From NCBI RefSeq assembly GCF_044647545.1, contig NZ_CP172818.1: 64,000 bases of DNA. One strand, given 5' to 3'. Under the pieces are notes generated by a model. That model ran no database searches, was not told the DNA's origin, and saw nothing but the letters and a program-made list of their open reading frames with translations. The DNA comes from Escherichia coli (GTDB lineage Bacteria; Pseudomonadota; Gammaproteobacteria; Enterobacterales; Enterobacteriaceae). The first letter of the stretch is position 1; each line of letters starts with the position of its first letter. This document shows positions 1 to 42,048 of this stretch, one piece after another. A program made the position numbers and the translations under genes.

Positions 1-1476
<1,476 letters not shown>

Positions 1477-1564
1477 TCATTCCAAAAAGTTAAGGACGTG
1501 GCTTGTCAGACGACGGATGAAGCAAGAGACGATCGCCGCAAAGGCGATGCGATAGCAGATTAAC

Positions 1565-1675
1565 TCTTGTTCCCTTCGCAGGTATTAGCCTGATCAGGTT
1601 CCGCGGATCCCGAATAAACGGTCTCAGCCAGTTAAGGCACTCCGACAAGAAATTAGCCCCGCAAACGGGGCGTTG
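1565..1675 (-). ncRNA. TPP (thi-box) riboswitch in the thiC leader
   Basis: Reverse complement contains GGGGCTAAT...CGGAGTGCC...GCTGAGAC...AACCTGATCAGGCTAATACCTGCGAAGGGAAC, with the CTGAGA thi-box hallmark, directly upstream of the thiC start. Confidence 0.7.
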
Positions 1676-13501: not shown

Positions 13502-15043
<1,542 letters not shown>

Positions 15044-15128
15044 CCTTAAAGAAGCGTACTTTGAAGTGCTCACACAGATTGTCTGATAGAAAGTGAAAAG
15101 CAAGGCGTCTTGCGAAGCAGACTGATAC

Positions 15129-15204
15129 GTCCCCTTCGTCTAGAGGCCCAGGACACCGCCCTTTCACGGCGGTAACAGGGGTTCGAATCCCCTAGGGGAC
15201 GCCA
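15129..15204 (+). tRNA. gltV: tRNA-Glu (UUC) in the 16S-23S spacer
   Basis: GTCCCCTTCGTCTAGAGGCCCAGGACACCGCCCTTTCACGGCGGTAACAGGGGTTCGAATCCCCTAGGGGACGCCA. Confidence 0.95.
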
Positions 15205-15399
15205 CTTGCTGGTTTGTGAGTGAAAGTCACCTGCCTTAATATCTCAAAACTCATCTTCGGGTGACGTTTGAGATATTTGCTCTTTAAAAATCTGGATCAA
15301 GCTGAAAATTGAAACACTGAATAGTCGAAAGATTATTCGTGAGTCTCTCAAATTTTCGCAACACGATGATGAATCGAAAGAAACATCTTCGGGTTGTGA

Positions 15400-18303
<2,904 letters not shown>

Positions 18304-18395
18304 ACAACGCCGAAGGTGTTTTGGCGGATTGAGAGAAGATTTTCAGCCTGATACAGATTAAATCAGAACGCAGAAGCGGTCTGATAAACAGAATT

Positions 18396-18515
18396 TGCCT
18401 GGCGGCCTTAGCGCGGTGGTCCCACCTGACCCCATGCCGAACTCAGAAGTGAAACGCCGTAGCGCCGATGGTAGTGTGGGGTCTCCCCATGCGAGAGTAG
18501 GGAACTGCCAGGCAT
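18396..18515 (+). rRNA. rrfE: 5S ribosomal RNA
   Basis: TGCCTGGCGGCCTTAGCGCGGTGGTCCCACCTGACCCCATGCCGAACTCAGAAGTGAAACGCCGTAGCGCCGATGGTAGTGTGGGGTCTCCCCATGCGAGAGTAGGGAACTGCCAGGCAT; 120 nt. Confidence 0.95.
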
Positions 18516-35600: not shown

Positions 35601-36305
35601 TTTCAACCACCGTAATATCAAAAAACCGAGCAAATACGCCAGCAACCCGGGCATTCATCTCACTCTCTTCACCACCATAAAACCATCCATACCCTCCGAA
35701 TCCTACCAATTCCCACCACGACATCCAATTACCCATACAAATTTTTAAACCTAACTCATATCCCAACGAATTAATTTATCCACAACCGGAAAATCCCGAA
35801 TCGATTCCCCTTTCAACTCCCCTGTATTAATTTTTACATAACGCTTTCGATTTACCACGTCCGCCAATAATACCAGATTAACTCCCGATTCCCCCCCGCA
35901 ATTTTCAACATCCTCACCCCCCAGGAAAAACCAACAAACCCATCCACAACGACCACATCCCCTTAACCCCACACCCATTATCTCTTCATCCTCATCATTT
36001 CCCGACACACACAACTCTTTCAGCCAAACTTTTCTTCATCCCCACCAAGATTTTCTTATCATATACGATACAATTCCTCGACCCCTTTTAACAACTACGG
36101 TAAAACCACCCCGATCCCCTCATACCCAAAATCAACCACAATCAAACAATCTCACTTTTTCCATCCCTCTTTCCACATGCAAAACCTTTCCACCACGAAA
36201 ACACAGACTTTCAAACGATTTTTCACTCAAGAAAACGCTTTCTCCACATTTTTTCCAACACACACACACATTCAATATTGATTATCTTATTGCCACAAAA
36301 TTATC
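32610..36305. other. Anomalous ~3.7 kb G-depleted, ORF-free segment of unknown origin between pepE and rluF
   Basis: Hand counts on the top strand give G about 8–10% inside the segment against about 22% in the flanks, with A and C elevated. The longest ORF in any frame is 92 codons. No recognisable gene, RNA, repeat array or mobility function. Boundaries are placed by where the G content shifts. Confidence 0.8.
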
Positions 36306-36422
36306 TATTTCCGGATACTTCTGTGATAAAAGCGGGCAGATCACATTAATTTCACGTTGCCTCATAACCCTTTTTTATCAACCCAAGAGGTACGGTATAT
36401 TCCGCGTTTTACAGGAGAATTT

Positions 36423-37358
36423 ATGCTGCCCGACTCATCAGTCCGTTTAAATAAATACATCAGCGAAAGCGGAATTTGCTCACGCCGCGAAGCGGATCGC
36501 TATATCGAGCAAGGCAATGTGTTCCTTAATGGCAAGCGAGCCACCATTGGCGATCAGGTGAAACCCGGCGACGTTGTGAAAGTAAACGGTCAGTTGATTG
36601 AGCCTCGGGAAGCCGAAGATTTGGTACTTATCGCCCTGAACAAGCCCGTCGGTATTGTCAGCACCACCGAAGATGGCGAGCGCGATAACATTGTCGATTT
36701 CGTTAACCACAGCAAACGCGTGTTCCCGATTGGCCGCCTGGATAAAGATTCCCAGGGGCTGATTTTCCTCACCAATCACGGCGATCTGGTGAATAAGATC
36801 CTCCGTGCGGGTAACGATCATGAGAAAGAGTATCTGGTGACGGTTGATAAACCGATTACCGATGAATTTATTCGTGGTATGGGGGCGGGAGTACCGATCC
36901 TCGGGACGGTAACTAAAAAGTGCAAAGTCAAAAAAGAAGCACCGTTTGTCTTCCGCATTACCCTGGTGCAGGGGCTGAACCGTCAGATTCGTCGCATGTG
37001 CGAGCACTTTGGTTACGAAGTGAAAAAGCTGGAACGTACGCGCATTATGAACGTCAGCTTAAGCGGCATTCCGCTGGGTGAGTGGCGCGATTTAACCGAC
37101 GATGAGTTAATCGATCTCTTTAAGCTCATTGAAAATTCCTCTTCCGAGGCAAAACCTAAAGCGAAGGCCAAACCGAAAACGGTAGGCATCAAACGTCCAG
37201 TCGTTAAGATGGAAAAAACGGTGGAAAAAGGCGGTCGCCCGGCGTCCAACGGTAAGCGTTTTACCTCGCCGGGGCGTAAAAAGAAGGGGGATCAGCGCCT
37301 GCCGCGCGTCGACGTATTTGCTGACCAGCTAAATGACGCCTCAGGATCCGGTTTATAA
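36423..37358 (+). CDS. rluF: 23S rRNA pseudouridine synthase RluF
   Basis: [49 protein letters not shown]..., with S4 domain, pseudouridine synthase core and Lys/Ala-rich C-terminal tail. Confidence 0.9.
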
Positions 37359-37564
37359 GCCTGCTTTTTCTTCAATTGGCGGGCTTTTTTCGCTTCAGCC
37401 TCACGCTCGACCATTAATTTATCGATGTACTCTTTCTTAATGCTGTTAGTTTCGGAGTTGGTCAGTACGCGACCATGCGCAATCCGCGCCCGATCCAGCA
37501 GTGTTTTAAGTTCACGCTGCTCGCGTTCAGTCATCTCTTTTTGGGTAATACGGGGGAGTGCCAT
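37292..37564 (-). CDS. yjbD: DUF3811-family small protein YjbD
   Basis: 90-aa [38 protein letters not shown]...; convergent with and overlapping the rluF 3' end. Confidence 0.75.
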
Positions 37565-37815
37565 GATGGTGCCCTCAGTGAGCCAGAGAGTTCAGTGTAC
37601 GGGAATTCGTTTGCGAGCAGAACTGATAATATTCATTTTGCCTTCTCTTAACTATTTATCTCTTTCGATAATTAGCGATAAATACAGATAAAAATTTAAC
37701 GCAAATTATTATCCGATAAAGACGCTGGTTAACAGAGTACAGGCTCGTTTATTGATGAGCATAGTGACAAGAAAATCAATACGGCCCGAAATATAGCTTC
37801 CAGGCCATACAGTAT

Positions 37816-39165
37816 TTACTCAAATAAATTAAAATGCAGCTTCTGCACCACCTGCTCGGCATCTTCGCCGGGCACCAGGAAGCACAGGTTATGGCTGGAT
37901 GCGCCGTAACAAATCATGCGAATGTTGAACGGTTCCAGTACGCCGAATACCTCTTTGCCAACGCCGCAGGCTTTTGACAGGTCATTGCCAATCAACGCGA
38001 CCAGCGCCAGACCTTCCTCCACTTCTACCCGGCATAGTGCAGACAGCTCCATCAGCAGAGATTGCGTCAGCAACGTATCGCCAGTGGAGGTTGAACCGGT
38101 GGTATCAAGGGTTAATGCCACGCTCACTTCTGACGTGGTGATTAAGTCTACCGAAATATTATGCCGCGCGAGGATGCCGAAAACTTCCGCGAGGAAACCG
38201 CGAGAATGCAGCATATTCAGGCTGTGCAAAGTGAGCAGAGTCTGATTGCGACGAAGCGCCAGCGCGCGGAACAGCGGCGGATTTTCAGTTTTATTGCACA
38301 CCAGCGTACCACCTGCGCGTGGGTCTTTGCTGGAGCCGACAAAGACCGGGATATCGCTGCGTACTGCGGGTAGCAACGTTGCCGGATGCAGTACTTTTGC
38401 ACCAAAAGTTGCCATCTCTGCCGCTTCGGCAAACGCGATTTCATCAATGCGTTTTGCTGCGGAAACCACGCGTGGATCGGTGGTGTAGATGCCAGGGACG
38501 TCGGTCCAGATATCAACACGAGTTGCGTGTAAAGCCTCCGCCAGCAAGGCTGCCGTATAATCGCTGCCTCCACGGCCAAGCGTCGTTGTACGACCTTTAT
38601 TTTCGCTACCGATAAATCCCTGGGTGATCACTAAGCCTTCATTGAGGCGTGGGAGCAGCTGCAGCGCGGCCAGTTCCGCCAGCGCGGCTACATCTGGCTC
38701 TGCACGACCAAATCGGTCGTTGGTACGCATCACTTTACGTACATCAAACCACTGTGCCTGAACATCGCGTTCGCGCAGGATTTCGACAAACAGCAGGGTC
38801 GACATCAGCTCGCCGTGGCTGACCAGTTCATCTGTCAGCGCCGGAGACGTTGCCAGCGCCGCCGCTTCTGCCAGAACAGTAATGTTCTCCAGCAGACGTT
38901 CAATCTCTTCACGGATAACGTTCGGGTAACGCAGACGTTCCAGAATGGCAAACTGGATATTGCGGATTGCGTCGAGTTTTTCGAATCGCTCGCCAGGTTC
39001 CAGTCCTTCAGCTAAAGCGACCAGCAGATTAGTGATACCAGCAGAAGCCGAGAGGACAACTAAACGCACGTTGGCATCAGAAAGCACAATATCAGCGCTG
39101 CGGTTCATGGCGTCAAAATCAGCTACGCTGGTACCGCCAAATTTGGAGACAACAATTTCAGACAT
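37816..39165 (-). CDS. lysC: Lysine-sensitive aspartokinase III
   Basis: 449-aa ORF MSEIVVSKFGGTSVADFDAMNRSADIVLSDANVRLVVLSASAGITNLLV... Confidence 0.95.
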   Translation of the reverse strand: MSEIVVSKFGGTSVADFDAMNRSADIVLSDANVRLVVLSASAGITNLLVALAEGLEPGERFEKLDAIRNIQFAILERLRYPNVIREEIERLLENITVLAEAAALATSPALTDELVSHGELMSTLLFVEILRERDVQAQWFDVRKVMRTNDRFGRAEPDVAALAELAALQLLPRLNEGLVITQGFIGSENKGRTTTLGRGGSDYTAALLAEALHATRVDIWTDVPGIYTTDPRVVSAAKRIDEIAFAEAAEMATFGAKVLHPATLLPAVRSDIPVFVGSSKDPRAGGTLVCNKTENPPLFRALALRRNQTLLTLHSLNMLHSRGFLAEVFGILARHNISVDLITTSEVSVALTLDTTGSTSTGDTLLTQSLLMELSALCRVEVEEGLALVALIGNDLSKACGVGKEVFGVLEPFNIRMICYGASSHNLCFLVPGEDAEQVVQKLHFNLFE

Positions 39166-39189
39166 AACTACCTCGTGTCAGGGGATCCA

Positions 39190-39446
39190 TTTTCAGCCTT
39201 GGCACAAGGGAAGAGCGGAAGACGGGTGGGCGCAGAGCGATACTTCGCTACTATTTTCACCCAGAAGTGCTCCACCACTTGCGAAACGCCCGACTGCGAA
39301 CGCTTCTGGTGACAACCCAGGGGATTCAGCCCCTGTAGCCGATGATGAACGTGGCCAGCCGTTCAATCACCTCGGCGATGCACCCCCTCAGGTGTTATCA
39401 CAGGACTGGCTCCTCCAACACCGTTACTTGGGCAACGCGCCTCTTC
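39190..39446 (-). ncRNA. Lysine riboswitch (L-box) in the lysC leader
   Basis: Reverse complement contains GAAGAGGCGCGTTGCCC...GGAGGAGCC...GGGGCTGAATCCCCTGGGTTGTCACCAGAAGCG...GGTGGAGCACTTCTGGGTG, matching L-box conserved elements. Confidence 0.7.
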
Positions 39447-39689
39447 TGGCCTGCGCTAGCGCAGGTAGTACATTTATAAATAAAGGGTGAGCGGGGCGGT
39501 TGTCAACGATGGGGTCATGCGGATTTTTCATCCACTCCTGGCGGTCAGTAGTTCAGCTAATAAATGCTTCGCTGCGCTAAGGGTTTACACTCAACATTAC
39601 GCTAACGGCACTAAAACCATCACATTTTTCTGTGACTGGCGCTACAATCTTCCAAAGTCACAATTCTCAAAATCAGAAGAGTATTGCTA

Positions 39690-41339
39690 ATGAAAAACAT
39701 CAATCCAACGCAGACCGCTGCCTGGCAGGCACTACAGAAACACTTCGATGAAATGAAAGACGTTACGATCGCCGATCTTTTTGCTAAAGACGGCGATCGT
39801 TTTTCTAAGTTCTCCGCAACCTTCGACGATCAGATGCTGGTGGATTACTCCAAAAACCGCATCACTGAAGAGACGCTGGCGAAATTACAAGATCTGGCGA
39901 AAGAGTGCGATCTGGCGGGCGCGATTAAGTCGATGTTCTCTGGCGAGAAGATCAACCGCACTGAAAACCGCGCCGTGCTGCACGTAGCGCTGCGTAACCG
40001 TAGCAATACCCCGATTCTGGTTGATGGCAAAGATGTTATGCCGGAAGTCAACGCGGTGCTGGAGAAGATGAAAACCTTCTCGGAAGCGATTATTTCCGGT
40101 GAGTGGAAAGGCTATACCGGCAAAGCAATCACTGACGTAGTGAACATCGGGATCGGCGGTTCTGACCTCGGCCCGTACATGGTGACTGAAGCACTGCGTC
40201 CATACAAAAACCACCTGAACATGCACTTTGTTTCTAACGTCGATGGGACTCACATCGCGGAAGTGCTGAAAAAAGTAAACCCGGAAACCACGCTGTTCCT
40301 GGTAGCATCTAAAACCTTCACCACTCAGGAAACCATGACCAACGCCCATAGCGCGCGTGACTGGTTCCTGAAAGCGGCAAGTGATGAGAAACACGTTGCG
40401 AAACACTTTGCGGCGCTTTCCACCAACGCCAAAGCCGTTGGCGAGTTTGGTATTGATACTGCCAACATGTTCGAATTCTGGGACTGGGTCGGCGGTCGTT
40501 ACTCTTTGTGGTCAGCGATTGGCCTGTCGATTGTTCTCTCCATCGGCTTTGATAACTTCGTTGAACTGCTTTCTGGCGCACACGCGATGGACAAGCATTT
40601 CTCCACCACGCCTGCCGAGAAAAACCTGCCTGTACTGCTGGCGCTGATTGGCATCTGGTACAACAATTTCTTTGGCGCGGAAACTGAAGCGATTCTGCCT
40701 TATGACCAGTATATGCACCGTTTCGCGGCGTACTTCCAGCAGGGCAATATGGAGTCCAACGGTAAGTATGTTGACCGTAACGGTAAGGTTGTGGATTACC
40801 AGACTGGCCCGATTATCTGGGGTGAACCAGGTACGAACGGTCAGCACGCGTTCTATCAGCTGATCCACCAGGGAACCAAAATGGTACCGTGCGATTTCAT
40901 CGCTCCGGCTATCACCCATAACCCGCTCTCTGATCATCACCAGAAACTGCTGTCTAACTTCTTTGCTCAGACCGAAGCGCTGGCGTTTGGTAAATCCCGC
41001 GAAGTGGTTGAGCAGGAATATCGCGATCAGGGTAAAGATCCGGCAACGCTTGACTACGTGGTGCCGTTCAAAGTGTTCGAAGGTAACCGCCCGACCAACT
41101 CCATCCTGCTGCGTGAAATCACTCCGTTCAGCCTGGGTGCGTTGATTGCGCTGTATGAGCACAAAATCTTTACTCAGGGCGTGATCCTGAACATCTTCAC
41201 CTTCGACCAGTGGGGCGTGGAACTGGGTAAACAGCTGGCGAACCGTATTCTGCCAGAGCTGAAAGATGACAAAGAAATCAGCAGCCACGATAGCTCGACC
41301 AATGGTCTGATTAACCGCTATAAAGCGTGGCGCGGTTAA
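39690..41339 (+). CDS. pgi: Glucose-6-phosphate isomerase
   Basis: [44 protein letters not shown]..., 549 aa. Confidence 0.95.
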
Positions 41340-41356
41340 TTAAAAACCTTAATAAC

Positions 41357-41386
41357 AATGCCGACTATAAGTCGGCATTGTTTTAT
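41357..41386 (+). terminator. Rho-independent terminator after pgi
   Basis: CAATGCCGAC-TATAA-GTCGGCATTG hairpin followed by TTTTA. Confidence 0.8.
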
Positions 41387-41692
41387 CAGATAAATCCTCT
41401 TGTCTGTTATTTAACGAAAATCATACCGTGAGGTTAATCCTAAAATAGATTTTTAATCGTGATTGATTTCGGAAAATACGCAGATTAATTACTTTTATTT
41501 TTATTTTAAGCTTATGATTTTTAATATTATTTATATATAAGTTGAAGCTTATATTTGATATTCATTCCAATTATCCTAAAACCCCATCGCTAATTCCCTG
41601 CGCCGTAATTCGCATGCTTTAGTTGTGTATACTCGATCCCGCCCGAAATGTTTTTGGGTAAATCTCCATTCATTCAATGAAGGGAAATTGTT

Positions 41693-41935
41693 ATGAAAAA
41701 AGTTCTGTATGGCATTTTTGCCATATCTGCGCTTGCGGCGACTTCTGCGTGGGCTGCACCTGTACAGGTGGGCGAAGCGGCAGGATCGGCAGCAACGTCG
41801 GTTTCGGCGGGGAGTTCCTCCGCGACCAGCGTCAGCACCGTAAGCTCGGCGGTGGGTGTCGCGCTCGCGGCAACCGGTGGCGGTGATGGTTCTAATACCG
41901 GGACCACAACAACCACGACCACCAGTACCCAGTAA
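41693..41935 (+). CDS. yjbE: Small secreted low-complexity protein YjbE
   Basis: 80-aa ORF with signal peptide [21 protein letters not shown], then a Gly/Ser/Ala/Thr-rich region ending in a poly-Thr tract; GGGAAA before the ATG. Confidence 0.8.
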
Positions 41936-42048
41936 TAAAGTATGTATCCCCAAAATAATTCGAGTCATTGCATCTGTGGCTTGAAGTATGAAGGGATTTA
42001 CCATAACCACACTCCGGTGTGGTTATTCTGCCCCTCTGGAGAAGAGTC

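What the first reader, a model, noticed from the sequence alone, without database searches (positions are those of the whole stretch)
39190..39446. Lysine riboswitch in the lysC leader
Seen in sequence: L-box conserved segments on the minus strand in the ~300-nt leader upstream of lysC. Known element.
Basis: partly seen in the sequence, partly recalled or inferred. Interest (0 to 1): 0.15.

Follow-up and report, generated by a model that had tools for sequence, protein, structure and literature searches.

The report
Known E. coli lysC lysine riboswitch
This is the well-studied lysine-sensing RNA switch in front of the E. coli aspartokinase gene lysC, base-for-base identical to the laboratory-strain copy, so it is real but ordinary.

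Summary
The finding is confirmed and is already known. Rfam's Lysine model (RF00168) matches window 39453-39257 on the minus strand over its full length, at 99.5 bits against a gathering score of 30 (E 3e-26). It lies 91 nt upstream of a 449-aa ORF that is lysine-sensitive aspartokinase 3 (lysC), which runs divergently from pgi. The window is E. coli chromosome. RefSeq already annotates a riboswitch here, 5425 of 5426 complete E. coli genomes carry it, and the 306-nt leader is identical to K-12 MG1655, the strain used in the published experiments. In 27 orthologous leaders the five-way-junction fold and the L2-L3 loop contact show compensatory changes. Downstream of the aptamer there is no intrinsic terminator. 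Instead, a 19-bp anti-P1 stem (ON state) competes with P1, and a helix that buries the Shine-Dalgarno sequence forms in the OFF state. The C-rich strand that switches partners carries the published RNase E Site1 and the Rho loading site. Novelty: none. Side observations are a covarying 5' hairpin, insertions in some relatives, and an apparently degenerate aptamer in Edwardsiella.

The parts
39501..39506 (-). Putative -35 hexamer TTGACA of the lysC promoter
   Evidence: Read from the sequence. TTGACA is conserved at the same place in enterobacterial orthologues. Its function is inferred. The consensus scan did not report it because the -10 is weak.
39477..39482 (-). Putative -10 hexamer TATTTA, 18-nt spacer
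   Evidence: A TATTT motif 17-18 nt after TTGACA is conserved in orthologues. Inferred, not tested.
39471..39471 (-). Transcription start (+1), equal to MG1655 position 4233539
   Evidence: Inferred from the published numbering, in which G309 coincides with the AUG start codon, and mapped.
39450..39465 (-). 5' hairpin CCUGCGC-UA-GCGCAGG (+7..+22), directly abutting P1
   Evidence: about -9 kcal/mol. A hairpin is predicted at the same place in 17 of the 18 leaders that lack an insertion, with different stem sequences (CCUGCGC/GCGCAGG, CUUGCGC/GCGCAAG, CUUACGU/ACGUAG, CAGCUUGC/GCAAGCUG). Its role is unknown.
39257..39453 (-). Lysine riboswitch aptamer (+19..+215): five-way junction, P1-P5
   Evidence: RF00168 at 99.5 bits. 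Helices mapped: P1 39448-39443/39267-39262 (the 6 bp in the Rfam model; one further C-G pair, 39449/39261, makes the 7-bp P1 listed in the next part), P2 39438-39430/39383-39375, P2a 39423-39416/39397-39390, P3 39371-39360/39351-39341, P4 39340-39330/39323-39314, P5 39312-39306/39278-39272. Covariation: 27 of 51 pairs have compensatory changes, and 0 of 500 shuffles reach that.
39443..39449 (-). P1 5' strand CCAGAAG, which pairs with 39267-39261 (CUUCUGG)
   Evidence: 7 bp, -8.8 kcal/mol as an isolated duplex.
39406..39410 (-). L2 segment GCCAG of the L2-L3 kissing contact; partner CUGGC at 39358-39354
   Evidence: all 5 pairs show compensatory changes. 69.8% of cells are paired against 17-54% in slid controls, and 0 of 500 shuffles reach the covariation score.
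39258..39283 (-). 5' strand of the anti-P1 (antisequestering) stem (+189..+214); overlaps the 3' strands of P5 and P1
   Evidence: 19 bp with +244..+269, -26.2 kcal/mol. Recovered by consensus folding of 21 distinct enterobacterial leaders. 88.8% of cells are paired against 46-64% in slid controls. Described as the anti-P1 stem in PMC10946432.
39203..39228 (-). 3' strand of the anti-P1 stem (+244..+269), within the C-rich tract (+230..+269: 18 C, 7 G of 40) that is the proposed rut site
   Evidence: PMC10946432 places the rut site near +240, single-stranded in the lysine-bound state.
39219..39222 (-). RNase E Site1 (UCUU, +250..+253)
   Evidence: Position taken from PMC10946432 (deletion of 250-253 = delta-Site1) and mapped. 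Not testable in silico.
39197..39209 (-). Anti-SD strand CCUUGUG-CA-GG (+263..+275); its first 7 nt are shared with the anti-P1 stem
   Evidence: The isolated 7-bp core duplex is -10.4 kcal/mol. 90.9% of cells are paired against 27-50% in slid controls. The block +255..+278 is 95% conserved in 23 Enterobacterales rows.
39171..39182 (-). 3' strand of the sequestering helix, CCUGACACGAGG (+290..+301), containing the Shine-Dalgarno GAGG (39174-39171)
   Evidence: The block +290..+302 is 97% conserved.
37816..39165 (-). lysC coding sequence (449 aa, AUG at 39165-39163), the regulated gene
   Evidence: ORF; NF006570, 766.5 bits. There are 24 substitutions relative to MG1655, all in the CDS.

Best explanation
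This is the E. coli lysC lysine riboswitch, an OFF switch in the 306-nt leader of the lysine-sensitive aspartokinase III mRNA. When lysine is scarce, the 3' strands of P5 and P1 (+189..+214) pair with the C-rich segment +244..+269 to form a long anti-P1 stem. This stem holds the anti-SD sequence CCUUGUG, leaves the Shine-Dalgarno sequence and AUG free for ribosomes, and buries RNase E Site1 and the Rho loading site. When lysine binds the five-way-junction aptamer, P1 closes and the C-rich segment is released. Its CCUUGUG then pairs with CACGAGG and occludes the Shine-Dalgarno sequence. The now single-stranded C-rich tract is cut by RNase E (degradosome) and loads Rho, which terminates at the pause at G309 and inside the ORF. 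What is shown here: the aptamer's identity and fold, the existence and conservation of the competing helices, and the absence of an intrinsic terminator. What comes from published experiments on the identical sequence: lysine dependence, RNase E cleavage and Rho termination. What is inferred: the exact +1 and the promoter hexamers.
For: RF00168 full-length hit at 99.5 bits. Downstream gene is lysC. 100% identity to many E. coli genomes with an annotated riboswitch, present in 5425 of 5426 genomes. The leader is identical to MG1655. Aptamer covariation across 28 leaders: 27 of 51 pairs compensatory, 0 of 500 shuffles reach that, 89.9% of cells paired against 41-49% when slid. The L2-L3 contact covaries. 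The anti-P1 stem is 19 bp at -26.2 kcal/mol, and the core of the SD-sequestering helix is -10.4 kcal/mol. Consensus folding recovers both when the aptamer strands are included (anti-P1) or excluded (sequester). They pair in 88.8% and 90.9% of cells across species. The platform blocks are 95-97% conserved against about 63% for adjacent spacers. No terminator-like site lies on the minus strand between the aptamer and the AUG. Literature on this sequence: ON/OFF model, RNase E Site1 at 250-253, rut near +240, and Rho/NusG termination at G309 rising from 31% to 56% with lysine (PMC10946432); pause at 309 (PMC5234074).
Against: Nothing argues against the identity. There are limits on the mechanism as tested here. 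The platform helices are too conserved to give real covariation: 2 of 19 pairs (anti-P1) and 4 of 11 pairs (sequester) have compensatory changes, which is not beyond the shuffles on most measures. Single-sequence MFE folds with P1 enforced did not choose the CCUUGUG/CACGAGG helix; they paired the SD with early coding sequence instead. The primary paper on RNase E control (Caron 2012) could not be read, so its stem drawings could not be compared with mine. The TSS is inferred from numbering rather than read from data.
Confidence: 0.97

Rival explanations
1. The riboswitch works as in Bacillus subtilis lysC (the L box): lysine binding allows an intrinsic terminator hairpin to form and transcription stops in the leader.
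For: The aptamer class is the same. B. subtilis lysC uses transcription attenuation (abstract of PMC3082890).
Against: No terminator-like hairpin followed by a U-run lies on the minus strand between 39257 and 39165. The only minus-strand site reported is upstream of the promoter, at 39720-39706. The platform is C-rich rather than a GC hairpin with a U tract. The published in vitro data need Rho and NusG for termination.
Confidence: 0.01
2. The switch acts only by masking the Shine-Dalgarno sequence. The falls in mRNA level (RNase E, Rho) are passive consequences of an untranslated message rather than direct outputs of the RNA fold.
For: The SD-sequestering helix is conserved. Other E. coli riboswitches (thiM, btuB) are described as non-nucleolytic in this sense. 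Part of the Rho effect inside the ORF is attributed to translation repression.
Against: The segment that switches partners carries Site1 and the C-rich tract and is double-stranded only in the ON fold. PMC10946432 reports that Rho/NusG termination at G309 is lysine-stimulated in vitro without translation, that a one-codon transcriptional fusion is still repressed about 2-fold, and that deleting 250-253 raises RNAP occupancy.
Confidence: 0.04
3. The leader encodes a small protein or leader peptide (the mechanical 57-aa ORF 39366..39193, TTG start) that mediates attenuation.
For: An ORF is listed there.
Against: Outside Escherichia the TTG start is absent, and the segment length is not a multiple of three in 15 of 24 rows or carries early stops. 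The same bases are explained by a covarying RNA fold.
Confidence: 0.005

Closest known systems
E. coli K-12 MG1655 lysC riboswitch (Caron et al. 2012, PNAS; Ghosh et al. 2024, RNA, PMC10946432)
   Same: It is the same element. All 306 leader bases (window 39471-39166 = MG1655 4233539-4233234) are identical. It has the same gene neighbours, lysC and pgi.
   Different: Only strain-level differences outside the leader: 24 substitutions in the lysC CDS and one in the upstream intergenic region at 39571.
Bacillus subtilis lysC L box / lysine riboswitch (PMC3082890)
   Same: The same aptamer class: a five-way junction with L2-L3 and P2-L4 tertiary contacts, upstream of an aspartokinase gene, and an OFF switch.
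   Different: The expression platform differs. B. subtilis uses an intrinsic terminator/antiterminator. Here there is no terminator. Instead an anti-P1 stem alternates with an SD-sequestering helix, coupled to RNase E and Rho.
Thermotoga maritima lysine riboswitch crystal structures (Serganov 2008; Garst 2008; from my own knowledge, not checked here)
   Same: The same Rfam family and conserved junction core.
   Different: Only the aptamer domain was crystallised. It comes from a different organism and has different peripheral helix lengths. For example, the E. coli P5 carries an 18-nt insertion relative to the Rfam consensus.
E. coli thiC, thiM and ribB riboswitches (Rho-coupled translational riboswitches)
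   Same: The same logic: SD masking, an anti-P1 stem, a pause at the start codon and Rho termination.
   Different: They have a different ligand and aptamer class. lysC additionally exposes an RNase E site directly (nucleolytic repression), unlike thiM and btuB.

Membership tests
Lysine riboswitch (Rfam RF00168, L box / LYS element) | Covariance-model score at or above the curated gathering score, over the full model | tested here: met
   99.5 bits against 30, model positions 1-182 of 182, E 2.9e-26.
Lysine riboswitch (Rfam RF00168, L box / LYS element) | [quoted passage not shown] | tested here: met
   Helices mapped. 27 of 51 pairs have compensatory changes, 89.9% of cells are paired, and 0 of 500 shuffles reach the observed values.
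Lysine riboswitch (Rfam RF00168, L box / LYS element) | Conserved junction core (AGAGG.GC, GCCGA, UGUCAC, GGAG..CU) | tested here: met
   All are present in the window. They are invariant or nearly invariant in 28 leaders: invariant columns A7-G14, G78-C80, T140-C146, G178-G184.
Lysine riboswitch (Rfam RF00168, L box / LYS element) | L2-L3 loop-loop (kissing) interaction | tested here: met
   GCCAG (+62..66) pairs with CUGGC (+114..118). All 5 pairs show compensatory changes and 0 of 500 shuffles reach the covariation score. MAFFT loop alignment is imperfect, so 69.8% pairing is probably an underestimate.
Lysine riboswitch (Rfam RF00168, L box / LYS element) | P2-L4 tertiary contact and the K-turn / loop-E motifs in P2 | tested here: inconclusive
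   The L4 loop GCUGAAUCC is nearly invariant. The P2 internal loop aligns to the model's conserved AGUA and GA..GG residues. Neither is a test of the three-dimensional contacts.
Lysine riboswitch (Rfam RF00168, L box / LYS element) | Located in the 5' leader of a lysine biosynthesis or transport gene, on the same strand | tested here: met
   It ends 91 nt upstream of the lysC AUG on the minus strand.
Lysine riboswitch (Rfam RF00168, L box / LYS element) | Direct, specific binding of L-lysine | not testable with these tools
   Rests on published work with the identical MG1655 sequence (PMC10946432 and the references in it).
Translational / RNase E / Rho type platform (E. coli lysC type) | An anti-P1 stem that overlaps the 3' strand of P1 and is mutually exclusive with an SD-sequestering helix | tested here: met
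   +189..214 pairs with +244..269 (19 bp, -26.2 kcal/mol), and +263..275 pairs with +290..301. The two share +263..269. Support comes from conservation and pairing, with little covariation.
Translational / RNase E / Rho type platform (E. coli lysC type) | RNase E site and a C-rich rut inside the strand that is released in the OFF state | tested here: met
   UCUU at +250..253, and C 18 / G 7 of 40 at +230..269, lie in the 3' strand of the anti-P1 stem. Cleavage and Rho loading themselves come from the literature.
Transcription-attenuating L box (B. subtilis type) | Intrinsic terminator hairpin with a U tract between the aptamer and the start codon | tested here: not met
   No such site lies on the minus strand in 39257-39165.

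The most novel reading that the evidence does not exclude
The 24-nt platform block +255..+278 (CGCUCUUCCCUUGUGCCAAGGCUG) is 95% conserved across Enterobacterales. That is more than the aptamer itself (83%) and more than the two alternative helices strictly require. A covarying 5' hairpin also abuts P1. Either could mark an extra, undescribed layer on top of the known three-way control, such as a trans-acting sRNA or protein site, or a 5'-end shield that tunes RNase E entry.
Probability: 0.05. Interest if true: 0.35.

Novelty: already known. Interest (0 to 1): 0.07.

Why it matters
It matters only as correct annotation. The element controls the first committed step of lysine biosynthesis in E. 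coli and is a textbook case of one RNA fold driving three outputs: translation, RNase E decay and Rho termination. Because the leader is identical to the experimentally studied sequence, nothing new follows from finding it here. The useful output is the exact map of the parts in window coordinates.

Tried and rejected
(1) The primary RNase E paper (Caron 2012) could not be read by DOI or PMC id. Its content is cited only through PMC10946432.

(2) Unconstrained and P1-enforced single-sequence MFE folds of the whole leader gave long-range pairings I do not trust. They did not choose the SD-sequestering helix. Only local duplex energies and consensus folding over 21 distinct leaders recovered it.

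(3) The promoter scan did not report the lysC promoter. The hexamers I give come from reading the sequence and from cross-species conservation.

(4) The genome-wide DNA pattern also hit 19 loci that are not lysC leaders. Sixteen are from Rhodanobacter, Dyella and Lysobacteraceae, and three are other MAGs (L012, L016, L022). Where an in-frame start exists, the match lies well inside an ORF (for example ...DDKFGG). These were discarded.

(5) I suspected that the inserted sequence 5' of P1 in E. albertii and others is an ERIC repeat. The E. albertii insert has no second match in any E. coli genome, so this is unsupported there. The Kosakonia insert resembles the ERIC core only from my memory.

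(6) The 57-aa ORF in the leader was rejected as a leader peptide.

Full report
**Observation.** Scanning window 36000-42000 against Rfam gives a full-length match to the Lysine riboswitch model RF00168 at 39453..39257 on the minus strand. The score is 99.5 bits against a gathering score of 30, with E 2.9e-26. It is the only Lysine hit in the whole 64-kb window. The next ORF on that strand, 39165..37816 (449 aa), scores 766.5 bits against NCBIfam NF006570, 'lysine-sensitive aspartokinase 3' (cut-off 455). The divergent ORF starting at 39684 is glucose-6-phosphate isomerase. It clips 7 nt at the 5' end, including part of the 5' strand of P1. It extends 67 nt into the expression platform and stops short of the Shine-Dalgarno sequence.

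**Origin.** The 651 bases around the leader are 100% identical to many complete E. coli chromosomes and are present in 5425 of 5426 complete genomes. RefSeq annotates 'riboswitch | lysC | pgi' there. Against K-12 MG1655, the stretch from lysC to the start of pgi differs at 25 positions: 24 in the lysC coding sequence and one upstream at 39571. There are no differences in the leader. Published experiments on the MG1655 lysC riboswitch therefore apply to this sequence base for base.

**Numbering.** Ghosh et al. 2024 (PMC10946432) number from the transcription start and state that G309 coincides with the AUG start codon. Chauvier et al. 2017 (PMC5234074) place the pause at 309 near the RBS/AUG. 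That puts +1 at window 39471 (MG1655 4233539), the aptamer at +19..+215, the Shine-Dalgarno GAGG at +298..+301 and the AUG at +307..+309. RNase E Site1 (positions 250-253) maps to UCUU at 39222-39219. The C-rich tract near +240 proposed as the rut site maps to about 39242-39203 (18 C and 7 G in 40 nt). Upstream of +1, a perfect TTGACA (39506-39501) and a TATTTA (39482-39477, 18-nt spacer) are conserved in other enterobacteria. I take these as the promoter by inference only, because the simple scan did not report them.

**Aptamer.** I collected orthologous leaders with one DNA-pattern scan of the species-representative genomes. I kept the 30 loci where the match sits at the start of an aspartokinase ORF. 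Rfam finds the Lysine aptamer in 28 of them at 63-110 bits. An alignment of the window with the 27 complete leaders supports the Rfam structure:
- 89.9% of cells are paired, against 41-49% when partners are slid.
- 27 of 51 pairs have compensatory changes.
- No shuffle out of 500 reaches the observed values.

The L2-L3 kissing contact (GCCAG +62..66 with CUGGC +114..118) also shows compensatory changes in all five pairs. PMC3082890 names this contact as a defining tertiary interaction, together with the five-way junction and the P2-L4 contact. The junction core is invariant. The P2-L4 contact and the K-turn cannot really be tested from sequence, although the relevant loops are conserved.

**Expression platform.** No intrinsic terminator lies on the minus strand between the aptamer and the AUG, so this is not the B. 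subtilis type of L box. Instead, two mutually exclusive pairings exist.
- **Anti-P1 stem (ON).** When the 3' strands of P5 and P1 are free, +189..+214 pairs with +244..+269 as a 19-bp interrupted stem (-26.2 kcal/mol).
- **SD-sequestering helix (OFF).** When those strands are taken up by the aptamer, CCUUGUG (+263..+269) can pair with CACGAGG (+295..+301), which covers the Shine-Dalgarno sequence (-10.4 kcal/mol). Four more pairs can extend this helix (+271/272 and +274/275 with +290..+293).

Consensus folding of 21 distinct enterobacterial leaders recovers exactly these two helices, depending on whether the aptamer strands are included. Across species they pair in 88.8% and 90.9% of cells, against 27-64% when slid. 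The sequences are so conserved that compensatory changes are few, so this counts as conservation and pairing potential rather than covariation proof. The blocks +255..+278 and +290..+302 are 95% and 97% conserved, against about 63% for the spacers between them and 83% for the aptamer. That fits a segment serving several roles at once. This anatomy matches the published model: an antisequestering (anti-P1) stem in the ON state hides the RNase E sites and the rut site, and the lysine-bound OFF state sequesters the SD and exposes them.

**Mechanism.** Low lysine: the anti-P1 stem forms, the SD is free, and lysC is translated. High lysine: P1 closes, the C-rich strand is released, and three things follow.
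- The SD is masked.
- RNase E cuts at Site1.
- Rho loads and terminates at the G309 pause and further into the ORF.

The reported data are Rho/NusG termination at G309 of 56% with lysine against 31% without. A one-codon transcriptional fusion is still repressed about 2-fold, and deleting 250-253 raises RNAP occupancy. The fold and its alternatives are shown here. The lysine, RNase E and Rho dependence comes from the literature on the identical sequence.

**Rivals.**
- Terminator-based attenuation is excluded by the lack of a terminator and by the published need for Rho.
- A purely translational switch with passive mRNA loss is contradicted by the translation-free in vitro termination and by the position of Site1 and the rut site in the switching strand.
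- The mechanical 57-aa ORF inside the leader loses its start codon and its frame outside Escherichia.

**Novelty.** None. The element is annotated in RefSeq, is in Rfam, and has been experimentally dissected.

**Side observations.**
- A small hairpin at +7..+22 abuts P1 and keeps its pairing with different sequences in 17 of the 18 leaders without an insertion.
- Several relatives (E. albertii, Kosakonia, Enterobacter EA-1, UBA3516) carry an insertion between that hairpin and P1.
- The two Edwardsiella lysC leaders keep the promoter, a 5' hairpin, P5-like segments and the SD box. L013 gives no Lysine hit even at E <= 1, and L024 gives none at the gathering score. This suggests a degenerate or remodelled aptamer.

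None of these changes the verdict for the window.

Noticed in passing
window 39450-39465 (-): A perfect small hairpin, CCUGCGC-UA-GCGCAGG, lies at +7..+22 of the lysC leader and directly abuts P1. A hairpin is predicted at the same place in 17 of the 18 orthologous leaders that lack an insertion, with different stem sequences (compensatory changes). Its role is unknown. It might shield the 5' end or stack on P1.
   Followed up: partly
L013 1147-1500 (-) and L024 (Edwardsiella anguillarum / piscicida): The lysC leader keeps a TTGACA promoter, a 5' hairpin, GGGCUGUCACC...GGUGGAGUACCUG and the CCCUGACACGAGG SD box, but lacks the CCAGAAGAGGCGC core. L013 has no Rfam Lysine hit even at E <= 1; L024 was checked only at the gathering score. 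It looks like a degenerate or remodelled lysine riboswitch.
   Followed up: partly
L002 2008-2090; also L023, L025, L034, L039, L041, L005: In E. albertii, Kosakonia, Enterobacter EA-1 and an uncultured Enterobacteriaceae genome, roughly 60-130 nt ending in ...GAAAGGCGAAGGUAAUAG are inserted immediately 5' of P1. They separate P1 from the promoter-proximal leader, and UBA3516 still shows a partial 5'-hairpin-like sequence upstream of its insert. The E. albertii insert has no other match in E. coli genomes. The Kosakonia one resembles an ERIC core, from memory only.
   Followed up: partly
window 41347-41496 (-): An Rfam STnc430 (enterobacterial sRNA) hit at 72.6 bits lies just past the end of pgi, on the opposite strand. 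STnc430 hits also occur in four of the related loci (L009, L023, L042, L046).
   Followed up: no
window 1554-1654 (-): A TPP riboswitch (RF00059, 74.8 bits). From my knowledge of the K-12 map this is presumably the thiC leader.
   Followed up: no
window 13502-18513 (+): A complete rRNA operon (16S, a tRNA at 15129-15201, a StyR-44 hit at 15282-15392, 23S, 5S).
   Followed up: no
window 49022-49092 and 53251-53321 (+): Two hits to naRNA4 / CssrE (a REP-derived nucleoid-associated RNA family), at 62.7 and 79.8 bits.
   Followed up: no
E. coli genome collection: One of 5426 complete E. coli genomes has no match to the lysC leader. One record carries a copy on a plasmid.
   Followed up: no
L001 4490-5651 (E. 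coli FDAARGOS_497): In this strain, whose leader is 100% identical, a Mor-family activator gene and a putative holin gene (prophage-like) lie directly downstream of lysC. K-12 has yjbD at that position, and the window has a 90-aa ORF of matching size at 37292-37564.
   Followed up: no
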